Shown here piece after piece: positions 15,938-17,338 of a stretch of DNA of 64,000 bases. A model generated the notes under the pieces. That model saw only the letters and a list, made by a program, of their open reading frames with translations, had not been told where the DNA came from and did no database searches. Location of the stretch: the NCBI GenBank assembly GCA_963755025.1, contig CAVWIH010000036.1:1-64000 (forward strand). Reading direction: 5' to 3'. The position numbers were made by a program, and so were the translations under genes. This DNA is from an uncultured Actinomycetes bacterium. Its GTDB lineage: Bacteria; Actinomycetota; Thermoleophilia; UBA2241. Each line of letters opens with the position of its first letter. Position 1 is the first letter of the stretch.

Positions 15938-17338
15938 TTAGGCGTGCAGCCCGGTCCGCTTTTTGAACTGCTCGACCGAGTTGATCTTGATGTCGAGGAG
16001 CTCCGCGATCTTGACCTTGGCCGCGATGCCCTTGGCGACACCCGGCACGCCGGTGATGGTGCCGATGTCGAGCTCTTCGCGCAGGTTACGCATGATGAGC
16101 GGGTCGGAGAGGTCGAGCGGCGTGACGTGGAGCTTGTCGGCCACGTACCTCTTGGCTTCTGTGTTCCTCATCTTCTGCAGTTGCATACGGGCTACTAGAT
16201 CTCCAGCAGCCCTGATGCCACCGATCGACGAGGCCAACAGATGCGCCATGTGCATGCCGGCTGGGTCGCCTGTACCCACCTATAACCCGTCGCAGCCGCC
16301 GATCTCGACCATGGCCGCGCTACAGCGCGTCACGGCGTCGACCGCCGGTGTCTCGAACATCGGCACGCCGCCGACGCCCATGCCCACGTTGGCGTGGATC
16401 GGGATCTTGGCGATCGCGCTGCAGGCCTTGACGAAGGTGACGGCGCGCGAGAGGTTCCACGGCGTCGACTTCTTGGTGTTGGTGTTGACGACGGGGCCGA
16501 AGATGGCCGTGCCGGCCTTCTCGCAGAGCTCGAGCTGCTGATGCGGCCAGAGCCCGGCAAGGCGCGTGCCCTCGTATTCGAGCTGGCCGTGGAAGCCCAG
16601 GACCATCTCGGACGACATGCCGATCTCGACCGGCAGGCCGGTGACGTTGGCGACGTGCTCGGTCGTTTTGAGCACGGCCAGGAACTCGGCGTCGCCGGTG
16701 GAGGCGACGGTGTCGTAGTCGATGCCGTCGGCGCCCATCTCGAGCATGCAGTCGCTCATGAGGATGCAGTCGTCCTGGCAGGCCTGAAGGGCTGCTTCTT
16801 GAGTGCGACGCGCCTCTTCGATCTTGCCCAGGGGCAGAAGATCGGACGGGTTCTCGAACGAGCCGTCGGGCCGGTAGTACAGCCCGAGGTTCGGCATGAA
16901 GCCGTACAGGAGCGGGAAGATCGTGGTCTCCTGCAGGAGCTCCATGTGGAGCTGCTCGAGCGCCTTCAGAAAGCGCTGCGGCTTGACGGAGTAGTCGTTG
17001 TGCGAGACCTCCATCGAGTCGAAGCCCAGCATGGACTCGAAGAGCCGCACGCCGACTTCGCGGTTGACCGGCGCCACGACGCCGCTCGACATGCGCGACG
17101 AGTTCAGGGCGTTGACGCACCCGTCCTTCGTCATGACGACCTCGTGACCACGCTCGACGCCCCAGATACGGCTGGGACAGACGAACATGTCGAAGAGGTA
17201 GTCGAGTTCGTTCTCGGTGAGCGGAGGGATCTTGGCCTTGACGGCGGCCGCTTCAGTCCCCTCCTCGAGCTCGTGGCGCAGCTCGTCACGGGTCATCTCG
17301 ACCGTGGAGCTGTCGCCCATTCTCGTCAGGATCTTCAC
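15938..17338 (-). CDS. mtbB: Dimethylamine:corrinoid methyltransferase MtbB, 466 aa, with in-frame amber codon (TAG, 16280-16282, codon 353) read as pyrrolysine
   Basis: Two abutting in-frame ORFs (352 aa + TAG + 113 aa) join as ...[33 protein letters not shown](TAG)-[29 protein letters not shown]...[29 protein letters not shown]. This matches the Methanosarcina MtbB pattern DG(I/L)-O-(I/V)GxGDP as I recall it. Confidence 0.92.

What the first reader, a model, noticed from the sequence alone, without database searches (positions are those of the whole stretch)
15938..17338. Pyrrolysine-type dimethylamine methyltransferase (mtbB with in-frame TAG) in a high-GC, apparently actinobacterial genome
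Seen: two in-frame ORFs separated by one TAG (16280-16282), giving GCDGL-TAG-VGTGDP in a continuous 466-aa MtbB-like protein. Established: methanogen MtmB/MtbB/MttB carry pyrrolysine at an amber codon, and in MtbB it lies in a DGI-O-IGVGDP context near residue 356. Known bacterial Pyl users are mostly Firmicutes and Deltaproteobacteria and mostly involve MttB. Inference: this organism, whose housekeeping block looks Thermoleophilia-like, has an expanded genetic code and demethylates dimethylamine. The first 350 codons have host-like G/C-ending usage, so the gene is probably long resident. A corrinoid protein (3784-4425) and an MttB-family gene lie nearby. I found no pylTSBCD, corrinoid activase or methyl-THF acceptor transferase in this window.
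Basis: partly seen in the sequence, partly recalled or inferred. Interest (0 to 1): 0.9.

Follow-up and report, generated by a model that had tools for sequence, protein, structure and literature searches.

The report
Pyrrolysine dimethylamine methyltransferase gene in Thermoleophilia
This is a genuine dimethylamine methyltransferase gene whose internal TAG stop codon encodes the rare 22nd amino acid pyrrolysine, in a soil or peat actinobacterium that carries the full machinery to read it; the kind is known, but it turns out to be a family-wide trait in this lineage.

Summary
Window 15938-17338 (minus strand) is one 466-codon MtbB gene with a single in-frame TAG at 16280-16282 (codon 353, ...GCDGL-O-VGTGDP...).

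It matches Pfam PF09505 end to end (619 bits) and passes NCBIfam's MtbB equivalog cut-off. Rfam's PYLIS_2 (the mtbB pyrrolysine insertion sequence) matches full length and starts exactly on the TAG. TAG sits at the same column in 79 of 79 related loci.

The genome holds pylB, pylC, pylD, tRNA-Pyl(CUA) and pylSn in a cluster, with pylSc nearby. It also has six intact mtbB genes, at least five Pyl-type mttB genes, corrinoid proteins, two activases and a methyl-THF:corrinoid methyltransferase.

Novelty is modest. Actinobacteriota MAGs expressing Pyl-type mtbB were reported in 2023, and PylRS in "two Actinobacteria" in 2022.

New here:
- The trait is near-universal in this organism's family (MtbB 53 of 55, PylSc 51 of 55 sampled genomes).
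- The genome encodes an aa3 cytochrome c oxidase and a bd oxidase on a contig that also carries Pyl genes.
- TAG ends about a third of predicted genes, with no back-up stops.

Caveat: pylC is split over two frames in this indel-prone assembly.

The parts
15938..17338 (-). mtbB: dimethylamine:corrinoid methyltransferase, 466 codons with one in-frame TAG; GTG start, TAA stop
   Evidence: PF09505 at 619.3 bits, full length; TIGR02368 equivalog 513.6 bits against a cut-off of 369.1; AF2 model with pLDDT 90.2
16280..16282 (-). UAG codon 353, read as pyrrolysine
   Evidence: it lies on positions 1-3 of Rfam PYLIS_2; same column is TAG in 79 of 79 related loci; unchanged in bridging contigs of runs X1 and X2
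16183..16282 (-). PYLIS_2 element (Rfam RF02509), the 100 nt from the UAG onward
   Evidence: 61.1 bits, gathering 36, E 7e-14, model 1-100 of 100. The 5' stem has several non-standard pairs in the window; the 3' stem is fully paired
16192..16209 (-). 3' stem-loop of PYLIS_2: 7-bp stem and AGAU loop over codons A-A-G-D-L-V-A, 24 codons after the UAG
   Evidence: 62 distinct rows, 99.1% of cells paired against 87.6% in shuffles, 41 double-change cells against 9.9, 0 of 500 shuffles as high. Gly codon is GGA in 86 of 86 against 10.8% background
17382..18197 (-). 271-aa gene of unknown family directly upstream of mtbB; variable insertion
   Evidence: GC3 0.94; no Pfam or NCBIfam hit; present in 1 of 79 related loci; 37% identical to the product of 11157-11993; weak nucleotidyltransferase lead
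18321..19977 (-). APC-family permease upstream of mtbB, conserved partner in the ortholog group; split over at least 4 frames in this assembly
   Evidence: tblastn with intact orthologs from L035 and L025; single-base indels at 19840, 19352, 19081/19088 and 18968/18989 in independent contigs; a permease is upstream of mtbB in 16-18 of 79 loci
3775..4425 (+). MtbC-like corrinoid protein, about 12 kb from mtbB
   Evidence: B12-binding plus B12-binding_2; TIGR02370 213.4 bits against a cut-off of 215.3, and MtbC equivalog 212.5 against 350; 98.9% nt identical over 787 bp to the copy inside the pyl cluster on C10

Best explanation
The gene encodes a pyrrolysine-containing dimethylamine:corrinoid methyltransferase (MtbB) of a Thermoleophilia bacterium, and the organism itself reads the internal UAG as pyrrolysine.

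Shown:
- The gene, its conserved UAG and its PYLIS_2 element.
- A pyl gene set on contig C10 (pylB, pylC, pylD, tRNA-Pyl(CUA), pylSn, and pylSc 4 kb away).
- Six intact mtbB paralogs and at least five UAG-bearing mttB genes.
- MtbC-like corrinoid proteins, two RACo/AcsV-type reductive activases and a methyl-THF:corrinoid methyltransferase.

Inferred from the established chemistry of the family:
- PylB, PylC and PylD make pyrrolysine from lysine.
- The split PylSn and PylSc charge tRNA-Pyl, which competes with RF1 at UAG.
- Full-length MtbB is a TIM-barrel enzyme with Pyl353 at the end of a barrel strand. It uses the Pyl imine to bind and activate dimethylamine and methylates the Co(I) corrinoid protein, releasing monomethylamine.
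- The methyl group then passes to tetrahydrofolate.
- No acetyl-CoA synthase was found, and an aa3 oxidase, a bc1 complex, complex I and a bd oxidase are present. So the methyl-THF is most likely oxidised and coupled to respiration, or assimilated, rather than used for acetogenesis or methanogenesis.
For: Family identity: PF09505 at 619.3 bits, full length; TIGR02368 equivalog 513.6 bits, over 369.1.

UAG:
- One TAG per copy in 6 of 6 intact paralogs, at DG(L/Y)-O-VG(T/S/V)GD.
- 79 of 79 related loci have TAG there.
- All 150 listed MtbB matches in 301 class genomes show '1 TAG'.
- 113 of the 120 listed database homologs are 343-356 aa, meaning they were called only up to the amber codon.
- PYLIS_2 is anchored on the TAG at 61.1 bits, and is present in all 6 intact paralogs.

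Machinery:
- pylB 423.3 bits, over 348.2.
- pylD 173 bits summed, over 150.05.
- pylSn 125.7, over 51.15.
- pylSc 277.8, over 178.15.
- tRNA-Pyl(CUA) called by ARAGORN, with a compact cloverleaf.

Co-occurrence: PylSc in 61 of 301 and MtbB in 63 of 301 class genomes, confined to the same two families. Every PylSc-positive genome is MtbB-positive.

Pathway: methyl-THF:corrinoid methyltransferase NF005719 at 303.1 bits, over 259, and two activases at 656 bits.

Sequence integrity: contigs of two runs from different studies bridge the TAG unchanged, one of them from an RNA library.

Fold: AF2 pLDDT 90.2; barrel core 62-395 best matches methyltransferase TIM barrels (MetH N-half Z 17.9, rmsd 3.8, 267 aligned; 4ay7 Z 17.7).
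Against: - pylC scores 246.2 bits, just under its 248.3 cut-off, and is split over two frames at about C10:69088. If that is real, the cell could not make pyrrolysine. It is intact or in one frame in same-genus genomes (11 of 11 have it). This assembly shows other frameshifts that coincide with indels against independent contigs. pylC itself could not be checked.
- TAG ends 763 of 2,234 crudely called genes with no nearby back-up stop, and RF1 is present. Read-through must therefore be limited or regulated; how is not shown.
- No MtmB was found (genome 84% complete), so the fate of monomethylamine is open.
- The nearest corrinoid protein is 12 kb away and falls just below the family cut-off.
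- No proteomic evidence. The RNA-library contigs do not prove transcription.
- The genome is a MAG with 5% contamination, and the pyl genes are on a different contig from the window.
Confidence: 0.9

Rival explanations
1. A genuine Pyl enzyme, but this paralog's substrate is not dimethylamine. It would be another secondary or tertiary amine, for example an N-methylated amino alcohol derived from choline or ethanolamine.
For: Six paralogs fall into two groups that are only 48-49% identical, and the window group carries an 11-residue insertion. The window copy's orthologs share a metallophosphoesterase-permease-mtbB arrangement (16-18 of 79 loci) with a convergent choline/ethanolamine-kinase-like gene (8 of 79) instead of the mtbB-mttB-corrinoid layout. 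The window holds three APH/choline-kinase-like genes, three APC permeases and two DeoR regulators. A choline-kinase-like paralog lies beside a Pyl-mttB on C21.
Against: The protein passes the MtbB equivalog model. It keeps the Pyl motif and 49 invariant columns across 35 sequences. No MtbB-family member with another substrate is known to me (recalled). Neighbourhood is weak evidence.
Confidence: 0.15
2. An untranslatable relic: the organism cannot make pyrrolysine because pylC is broken, so the gene yields only a truncated product unless Pyl is scavenged.
For: pylC is split over two frames and falls just below its cut-off in G000.
Against: Six mtbB and at least five mttB genes keep open frames on both sides of the TAG, with high GC3. 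pylB, pylD, pylS and pylT are intact. PylC is present in 11 of 11 same-genus genomes. The assembly has indel-type frameshifts that independent contigs do not share.
Confidence: 0.04
3. The TAG is a sequencing or assembly error, or a recent nonsense mutation in a sense codon.
For: The assembly contains errors of the indel type.
Against: Unchanged in bridging contigs of independent runs. TAG at the same column in 79 of 79 loci and in all listed matches of 63 genomes. The PYLIS_2 model starts on it.
Confidence: 0.01

Closest known systems
Methanosarcina MtbB (dimethylamine:corrinoid methyltransferase, Pyl at an in-frame UAG; Pfam PF09505, NCBIfam TIGR02368, Rfam PYLIS_2)
   Same: Full-length collinear match to both protein models, a UAG at the start of the PYLIS_2 match, a similar length (466 aa), and an MtbC-like partner encoded in the genome.
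   Different: The host is a bacterium. PylS is split into pylSn and pylSc. The likely methyl acceptor is tetrahydrofolate through a methyl-THF:corrinoid methyltransferase, rather than coenzyme M through MtbA. The 5' stem of PYLIS_2 is poorly paired here. No direct alignment to a named Methanosarcina sequence was possible.
Olavius algarvensis delta-1 symbiont (Deltaproteobacteria): six Pyl-MtbB, two Pyl-MttB, pylT, pylSn, pylSc and pylBCD (PMC1976440, passages read)
   Same: A bacterium with many mtbB paralogs, each with a UAG, plus a complete split-PylS cassette.
   Different: Different phylum and habitat. This genome has at least 11 intact UAG-bearing methyltransferase genes (6 mtbB plus at least 5 mttB), plus one disrupted mtbB copy, and about 20 further non-Pyl MttB-family matches.
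Actinobacteriota MAGs of a thawing permafrost mire expressing Pyl-encoding mttB and mtbB (PMC10805028, passages read)
   Same: Same phylum, same two gene families, recognised by truncation at the amber codon. Peat, soil and permafrost runs hold this gene nearly identically.
   Different: In the passages I read, that paper gives one sentence on it and does not describe pyl genes, paralog numbers, PYLIS elements or lineage-wide distribution. Whether its MAGs belong to this genome's family was not tested.
Acetohalobium arabaticum and Desulfitobacterium hafniense type bacterial Pyl systems (recalled; D. hafniense is mentioned in PMC1976440 and in the listing of PMC1851642)
   Same: Split pylSn/pylSc, UAG kept as a common stop codon, and methyl transfer to tetrahydrofolate.
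   Different: Those are strict anaerobes that mostly use MttB. This genome has an aa3 cytochrome c oxidase operon and no acetyl-CoA synthase was found.

Membership tests
MtbB, dimethylamine:corrinoid methyltransferase (PF09505 / TIGR02368) | Full-length match to the family model above the curated cut-off | tested here: met
   PF09505 619.3 bits (cut-off 25), residues 5-460 on profile 5-462 of 463. TIGR02368 equivalog 513.6 bits against 369.1.
MtbB, dimethylamine:corrinoid methyltransferase (PF09505 / TIGR02368) | In-frame UAG at the pyrrolysine position | tested here: met
   O353 lies on positions 1-3 (UAG) of Rfam PYLIS_2. 79 of 79 related loci have TAG at this column. No named archaeal sequence was available for a direct alignment.
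MtbB, dimethylamine:corrinoid methyltransferase (PF09505 / TIGR02368) | Cognate corrinoid protein MtbC | tested here: inconclusive
   The product of window 3775-4425 scores 213.4 bits on TIGR02370 (cut-off 215.3) and 212.5 on the MtbC equivalog (cut-off 350). It lies 12 kb away. Pairing with this MtbB was not tested.
MtbB, dimethylamine:corrinoid methyltransferase (PF09505 / TIGR02368) | Dimethylamine-dependent methylation of the Co(I) corrinoid | not testable with these tools
   Needs an enzyme assay with Pyl-containing protein.
Pyrrolysine decoding system (pylT, pylS, pylB, pylC, pylD) | tRNA-Pyl with a CUA anticodon | tested here: met
   ARAGORN places tRNA-Pyl(cta) at C10:71096-71168, between pylD and pylSn. 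The cloverleaf has a 5-nt D-loop, a long anticodon stem and a short variable loop. The general Rfam tRNA model does not reach it.
Pyrrolysine decoding system (pylT, pylS, pylB, pylC, pylD) | Pyrrolysyl-tRNA synthetase (the bacterial form is split into PylSn and PylSc) | tested here: met
   PylSc 277.8 bits, over 178.15. PylSn 125.7, over 51.15. They are separate genes.
Pyrrolysine decoding system (pylT, pylS, pylB, pylC, pylD) | PylB and PylD | tested here: met
   PylB 423.3 bits, over 348.2. PylD 173 bits summed in one frame, over 150.05, with a PylD_N domain.
Pyrrolysine decoding system (pylT, pylS, pylB, pylC, pylD) | Intact PylC | tested here: inconclusive
   246.2 bits against a cut-off of 248.3, split over two frames at about C10:69088. 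11 of 11 same-genus genomes have PylC.
Pyrrolysine decoding system (pylT, pylS, pylB, pylC, pylD) | Pyrrolysine found in the protein | not testable with these tools
   Needs mass spectrometry.
PYLIS_2 (Rfam RF02509) | Score at or above the gathering threshold, starting at the UAG | tested here: met
   61.1 bits against 36, model 1-100 of 100. The five other intact paralogs score 57.8-73.7 bits.
PYLIS_2 (Rfam RF02509) | Base-paired stems supported by covariation | tested here: inconclusive
   3' stem: both free pairs covary, CG/GC/UA/AU/UG and CG/GC/UG/UA, with 0 of 500 shuffles as high. 5' stem: several non-standard pairs in the window, and RNAalifold on 23 sequences predicted a different, weak 5' pairing. 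Its role in decoding is not established.

The most novel reading that the evidence does not exclude
A whole family of soil and peat Thermoleophilia, not just a stray genome, lives with a pyrrolysine-expanded code and unusually large sets of Pyl enzymes (at least 11 intact UAG-bearing methyltransferase genes here). About half of its sampled members, this one included, also carry a complete aerobic respiratory chain. If so, Pyl- and corrinoid-dependent methylamine demethylation is coupled in these bacteria to methyl-THF oxidation and (micro)aerobic respiration. That physiology is unlike every characterised Pyl user, all of which are strict anaerobes (recalled). They would do this while UAG remains the stop codon of about a third of genes with no back-up stops, which implies a strong, still unknown control of read-through. 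The divergent window-type paralog, embedded among permease and choline-kinase-like genes, may take an amine other than dimethylamine.
Probability: 0.3. Interest if true: 0.7.

Novelty: new member of a known kind. Interest (0 to 1): 0.5.

Why it matters
Pyrrolysine is the rarest natural expansion of the genetic code. Its known bacterial users are few and anaerobic: a 2022 survey counted 81 bacterial genomes with PylRS, two of them Actinobacteria (PMC9630628).

This report shows that one Thermoleophilia family carries the system almost universally. In the sample of 301 class genomes, 51-53 of 55 genomes of that family carry PylSc and MtbB, and 9 of 55 in one further family. These genomes have many Pyl enzymes each. 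This adds an abundant soil and peat lineage to the organisms that remove di- and trimethylamine, which are methanogen substrates, so it bears on methane budgets.

The co-presence of an aa3 oxidase, and the heavy use of UAG as an ordinary stop, make this lineage a natural test case for two questions: how a cell keeps one codon ambiguous, and whether oxygen-sensitive corrinoid and Pyl chemistry can serve a respiring bacterium.

It also supplies many new split PylRS/tRNA-Pyl pairs from high-GC bacteria.

Tried and rejected
- Direct alignment to a named Methanosarcina MtbB. No tool returned one. The genome-contig scan kept only the 80 best matches (79 distinct loci), all bacterial. The PDB has no MtbB chain. 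The original paper PMC111316 is not held. The Rfam PYLIS_2 anchor was used instead.
I read P0117 with get_proteins instead.
- A second Pyl site at window TAG 11136-11138. Rejected: it is the stop of a DeoR-type regulator's DeoRC domain, followed by a separate gene.
- My 'new' hairpin downstream of the UAG. It turned out to be the 3' stem of the existing Rfam family PYLIS_2, and a 'relatively canonical' mtbB structure is mentioned in PMC3639795 (passage read; its figure is not held).
- Back-up stops after TAG-terminated genes. None enriched: the median distance to the next in-frame TAA or TGA is 105 codons after TAG, against 73 after TGA. The gene calls are crude: ORFs of 90 aa or more picked by GC3.
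- Foldseek against the PDB gave only generic TIM barrels with TM-scores of 0.3-0.4.
- MtmB (PF05369) and acetyl-CoA synthase (PF03598) were not found in a genome that is 84% complete. This does not prove absence.
- Earlier scan notes: nothing to show.
- Parts of the laid stretch without contig cover (for example 18346-18933) say nothing.
- Literature: 'pyrrolysine' with 'Thermoleophilia' gave 1 irrelevant paper. 'RBG-16-64-13' gave 5 papers, none on Pyl beyond PMC10805028. The search on pyrrolysine with aerobic or strict anaerobes listed no paper on an aerobic Pyl user (listing only).
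Full report
OBSERVATION

The feature is real and lies on the minus strand. Window 15938-17338 (-) read with TAG as a sense codon is one frame of 466 residues. The single odd codon is O353 (TAG at 16280-16282), in ...[18 protein letters not shown].... 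Table 11 splits it into ORFs 16280-17338 and 15938-16279 in the same frame. The GTG start is preceded by AGGAAGG. GC3 is 0.92 and 0.83 for the two halves, like other genes of the window.

WHAT IT IS

Pfam PF09505 (Dimeth_Pyl) matches residues 5-460 to profile 5-462 of 463 at 619.3 bits. NCBIfam's MtbB equivalog TIGR02368 gives 513.6 bits against a cut-off of 369.1. No PDB chain matches by sequence.

An AlphaFold2 model built on a 35-row alignment is confident (mean pLDDT 90.2, pTM 0.92) and shows a beta/alpha barrel, with residue 353 in strand 351-354. Foldseek finds only generic TIM barrels. VIA-align ranks methyltransferase barrels first: MetH N-terminal half Z 17.9, rmsd 3.8, 267 aligned; Methanosarcina mazei methyltransferase 4ay7 Z 17.7; uroporphyrinogen decarboxylase 16.7; BHMT 16.6. 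Unrelated TIM barrels follow closely at Z 14-16. The fold agrees with the family but proves no function.

IS THE TAG THE PYL CODON?

Rfam RF02509, PYLIS_2 ('Pyrrolysine insertion sequence mtbB'), matches 16183-16282 (-) over all 100 model positions at 61.1 bits (gathering 36, E 7e-14). Its first three positions, UAG, fall on the window's TAG, and the model consensus after it reads aUa GGu guc GGc Gac CC.

A scan of one genome per species found 469 stretches encoding a relative. In the 79 distinct loci kept, the column is TAG in 79 of 79. These come mostly from records titled Thermoleophilia, Actinomycetota or Actinomycetes. A few are titled Firmicutes or Bacillota (including a Thermincola record), Desulfobacterales, Deltaproteobacteria, Thermodesulfobacteriota or Chloroflexota.

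Of the 120 best database homologs listed, 113 are 343-356 aa long, meaning gene callers stopped at the amber codon. In the exhaustive representative library the family is small: 589 clusters at E up to 0.001, and 65 at E up to 1e-30. Many listed representatives end at query residue 352 or start at 355-363.

Two full-length homologs without Pyl exist. P0127 (39% identical) has Trp at the column and lacks the motif. P0117 (50% identical) has Leu. I could not align to a named Methanosarcina MtbB, because no tool returned one and the original paper is not held.

IS THE SEQUENCE RIGHT?

Contigs of four public runs from four studies were laid on 15700-20100. X1 (an RNA library; 16101-16531) and X2 (16177-16354) bridge the TAG with no difference. 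X3 and X4 bridge it with 11 and 6 differences. None of the listed differences is at 16280-16282, though 56 rows were not shown. RNA-library contigs do not prove transcription.

THE HOST AND ITS PYL SYSTEM

The window is the start of contig C36 of a 3.37-Mb, 39-contig, 70.7% GC assembly that is 84% complete and 5% contaminated. The closest mtbB relatives (85-91% identity) are Thermoleophilia records.

Contig C10 carries the following:
- pylB (423.3 bits, over 348.2)
- pylC (246.2 bits, just under 248.3, and split over two frames at about 69088)
- pylD (173 bits summed, over 150.05)
- tRNA-Pyl(CUA) at 71096-71168
- pylSn (125.7 bits, over 51.15)
- pylSc on the other strand, 4 kb on (277.8 bits, over 178.15)

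The tRNA folds into a compact cloverleaf with a 5-nt D-loop, a long anticodon stem, a short variable loop and an encoded CCA. The general Rfam tRNA model does not reach it.

The genome has six intact mtbB genes and one disrupted copy. Each intact copy has one TAG at DG(L/Y)-O-VG(T/S/V)GD, and they form two groups that are 48-49% identical to each other. All six intact copies carry PYLIS_2.

There are 34 MTTB-family matches, five of them with one TAG. Four of those five carry PYLIS_3; the fifth (C21) was not in the scan. No MtmB was found.

Two RACo/AcsV-type activases (656 bits each) and a methyl-THF:corrinoid methyltransferase (NF005719, 303.1 bits, over 259) are present. The other mtbB loci have the usual mtbB-mttB(Pyl)-corrinoid layout, with TetR regulators and permeases.

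HOW WIDESPREAD IN THE LINEAGE?

In 301 genomes sampled from the class (G000 included):
- MtbB is in 63: own family 53 of 55, one other family 9 of 55, and the ten other families 0 of 190. All 150 listed matches carry exactly one TAG; 122 more were not listed.
- PylSc at E up to 1e-40 is in 61: 51 of 55, 9 of 55 and 0 of 190.
- Every PylSc-positive genome is MtbB-positive. Two MtbB-positive genomes (93% and 83% complete) lack a PylSc match. The two family members without MtbB also lack PylSc.

Kin are not independent, but the trait is clearly a family character. This supports 'long resident'.

THE PYLIS HAIRPIN

I first noticed, and then found already filed in Rfam, a 7-bp stem with an AGAY loop over the codons (A/T)-A-G-D-L-V-A, always 24 codons after the UAG (window 16192-16209, minus strand).

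In 86 distinct mtbB sequences, the two pairs that fall on synonymous third positions are kept in 86 of 86 (CG 47, GC 18, UG 17, UA 4) and in 82 of 86 (CG 43, GC 12, AU 11, UA 9, UG 7). The Gly codon is GGA in 86 of 86, against 10.8% of 4,630 Gly codons in the same genes. Asp is GAT in 73 of 86, against 21.1%.

On 62 distinct rows, 99.1% of cells pair against 87.6% in shuffles. There are 41 double-change cells against 9.9, 0 of 500 shuffles reach the covariation score, and slid controls fall to 20-57%.

The 5' stem of the model is poorly paired in the window. PMC3639795 mentions a 'relatively canonical' predicted mtbB structure (passage read; its figure is not held). What the stem does is unknown. 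At 72 nt it is too far from the UAG to touch the decoding ribosome (inference).

NEIGHBOURHOOD

On the minus strand, in order:
- a metallophosphoesterase (20063-21076)
- an APC permease (about 18321-19977)
- a 271-aa gene of unknown family (17382-18197)
- mtbB

A choline/ethanolamine-kinase-like gene (14709-15752, +) converges on it.

Among the 79 loci, permease pieces are upstream of mtbB in 16-18, the phosphoesterase in 16, the kinase in 8, and the 271-aa gene in 1.

The window's permease is split over at least four frames. Independent contigs show single-base indels at 19840 (three runs), 19352 (two runs), 19081/19088 and 18968/18989, so these are probably consensus errors. The same may hold for pylC. 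PylC is present in 11 of 11 same-genus genomes and over the cut-off in all of them, mostly in one frame.

PHYSIOLOGY (INFERENCE)

No acetyl-CoA synthase was found. Contig C14 also carries an mtbB and two Pyl-mttB genes. It holds an actinobacterial bc1 complex, CoxB (162.9 bits, over 147.7), CtaD fused to subunit III (674.4 bits, over 670.75), NuoCD and NuoF, and further along a cytochrome bd oxidase. COX1 is found in 31 of 60 sampled family members and in 8 of 11 of the genus. RF1 is present.

TAG ends 763 of 2,234 crudely called genes. This count includes the N-terminal halves of the Pyl genes. Such genes have no nearer back-up stop than others.

So UAG is ambiguous here, not reassigned, and read-through must be limited. 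I recall that regulation of the pyl genes is the known solution in Acetohalobium, but I did not see that paper.

COMPARISON AND NOVELTY

The kind is known. Pyl-MtbB was first found in Methanosarcina. A bacterium with six Pyl-mtbB genes and a split PylS was described in 2007 (PMC1976440, passages). PylRS in 'two Actinobacteria' among 81 bacterial genomes was reported in 2022 (PMC9630628, passage; repeated in PMC11764691). Actinobacteriota MAGs expressing Pyl-type mttB and mtbB were reported in 2023 (PMC10805028, passages).

I found nothing in the held library on Pyl in Thermoleophilia as such, nor on an aerobic Pyl user (listing only). Supplements of these papers were not opened and may name the lineages.

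The finding is therefore a new member of a known kind. The family-wide distribution, the large Pyl gene set and the aerobic respiratory chain are the parts worth following up.

VERDICT

Confidence that this is a translated Pyl-type mtbB is 0.9. Interest is 0.5.

Noticed in passing
G000 contig C14: 125390-136727 and 215357-216673 (outside the window): An aa3-type cytochrome c oxidase (CoxB, and CtaD fused to subunit III), an actinobacterial bc1 complex, NuoCD/NuoF and a cytochrome bd oxidase lie on the same 443-kb contig as an mtbB and two Pyl-mttB genes. COX1 is found in 31 of 60 sampled family genomes. A Pyl user with an aerobic chain would be unusual.
   Followed up: partly
window 18321-19977 (-): The APC permease upstream of mtbB is split over at least four frames. 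Independent contigs differ by single-base indels at 19840, 19352, 19081/19088 and 18968/18989, so the assembly seems to carry indel errors. pylC, a DeoR gene (HTH in the frame of 10328, DeoRC in the frame of 10641), the N-terminus of the C16 mtbB and the third mtbB on C11 look similarly affected.
   Followed up: partly
window 17382-18197 (-) and 11157-11993 (+): Two paralogs (37% identical) of an uncharacterised family of about 270 aa, with no Pfam or NCBIfam hit and only a weak nucleotidyltransferase lead from the ESM Atlas. There are about eight copies in the genome. One is 84% nt identical at C10:56969-57767, about 9 kb from pylB, and one lies beside MttB fragments on C22.
   Followed up: partly
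window 3770-4556 and G000 C10:73324-74110: The window's MtbC-like corrinoid gene is a 98.9% identical 787-bp duplicate of the corrinoid gene that lies between pylSn and pylSc in the pyl cluster.
   Followed up: partly
window 1124-1576 (-): Only the first 150 or so positions of an MttB-family protein are present (65.5 bits), with no continuation found. The opposite strand (ORF 8-1573 +) has a DUF882/Peptidase_M15 domain at its start.
   Followed up: partly
window 1507-2709 (-), 9195-10043 (+), 14709-15752 (+): Three APH/choline-ethanolamine-kinase-like genes, with three APC permeases, two DeoR regulators, a 2-hydroxyacid dehydrogenase and a glycerate-kinase-like gene. This looks like an island for an amino alcohol or related compound around mtbB. 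A 68% identical kinase paralog lies beside a Pyl-mttB on C21.
   Followed up: no
proteins P0127 and P0117 (database homologs): Full-length MtbB-family proteins without Pyl. P0127 (463 aa, 39% identical) has Trp at the Pyl column and lacks the DG-O-VG motif. P0117 (466 aa, 50% identical) has Leu there. These may be non-Pyl MtbB relatives, analogous to non-Pyl MttB.
   Followed up: no
G000 C24:14507-14604: A tRNA-Sec(TCA) gene, so this organism probably also decodes UGA as selenocysteine. One MttB-family match on C24 (57108-58541) has one in-frame TGA.
   Followed up: no
G000 C11:13366-16564: Two tandem mtbB paralogs have both the internal Pyl TAG and a TAG as their own stop codon.
   Followed up: no
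window 15815-15856: A long GC-rich inverted repeat lies between the convergent kinase-like gene and mtbB. It is probably a shared terminator. Seen in the sequence only.
   Followed up: no
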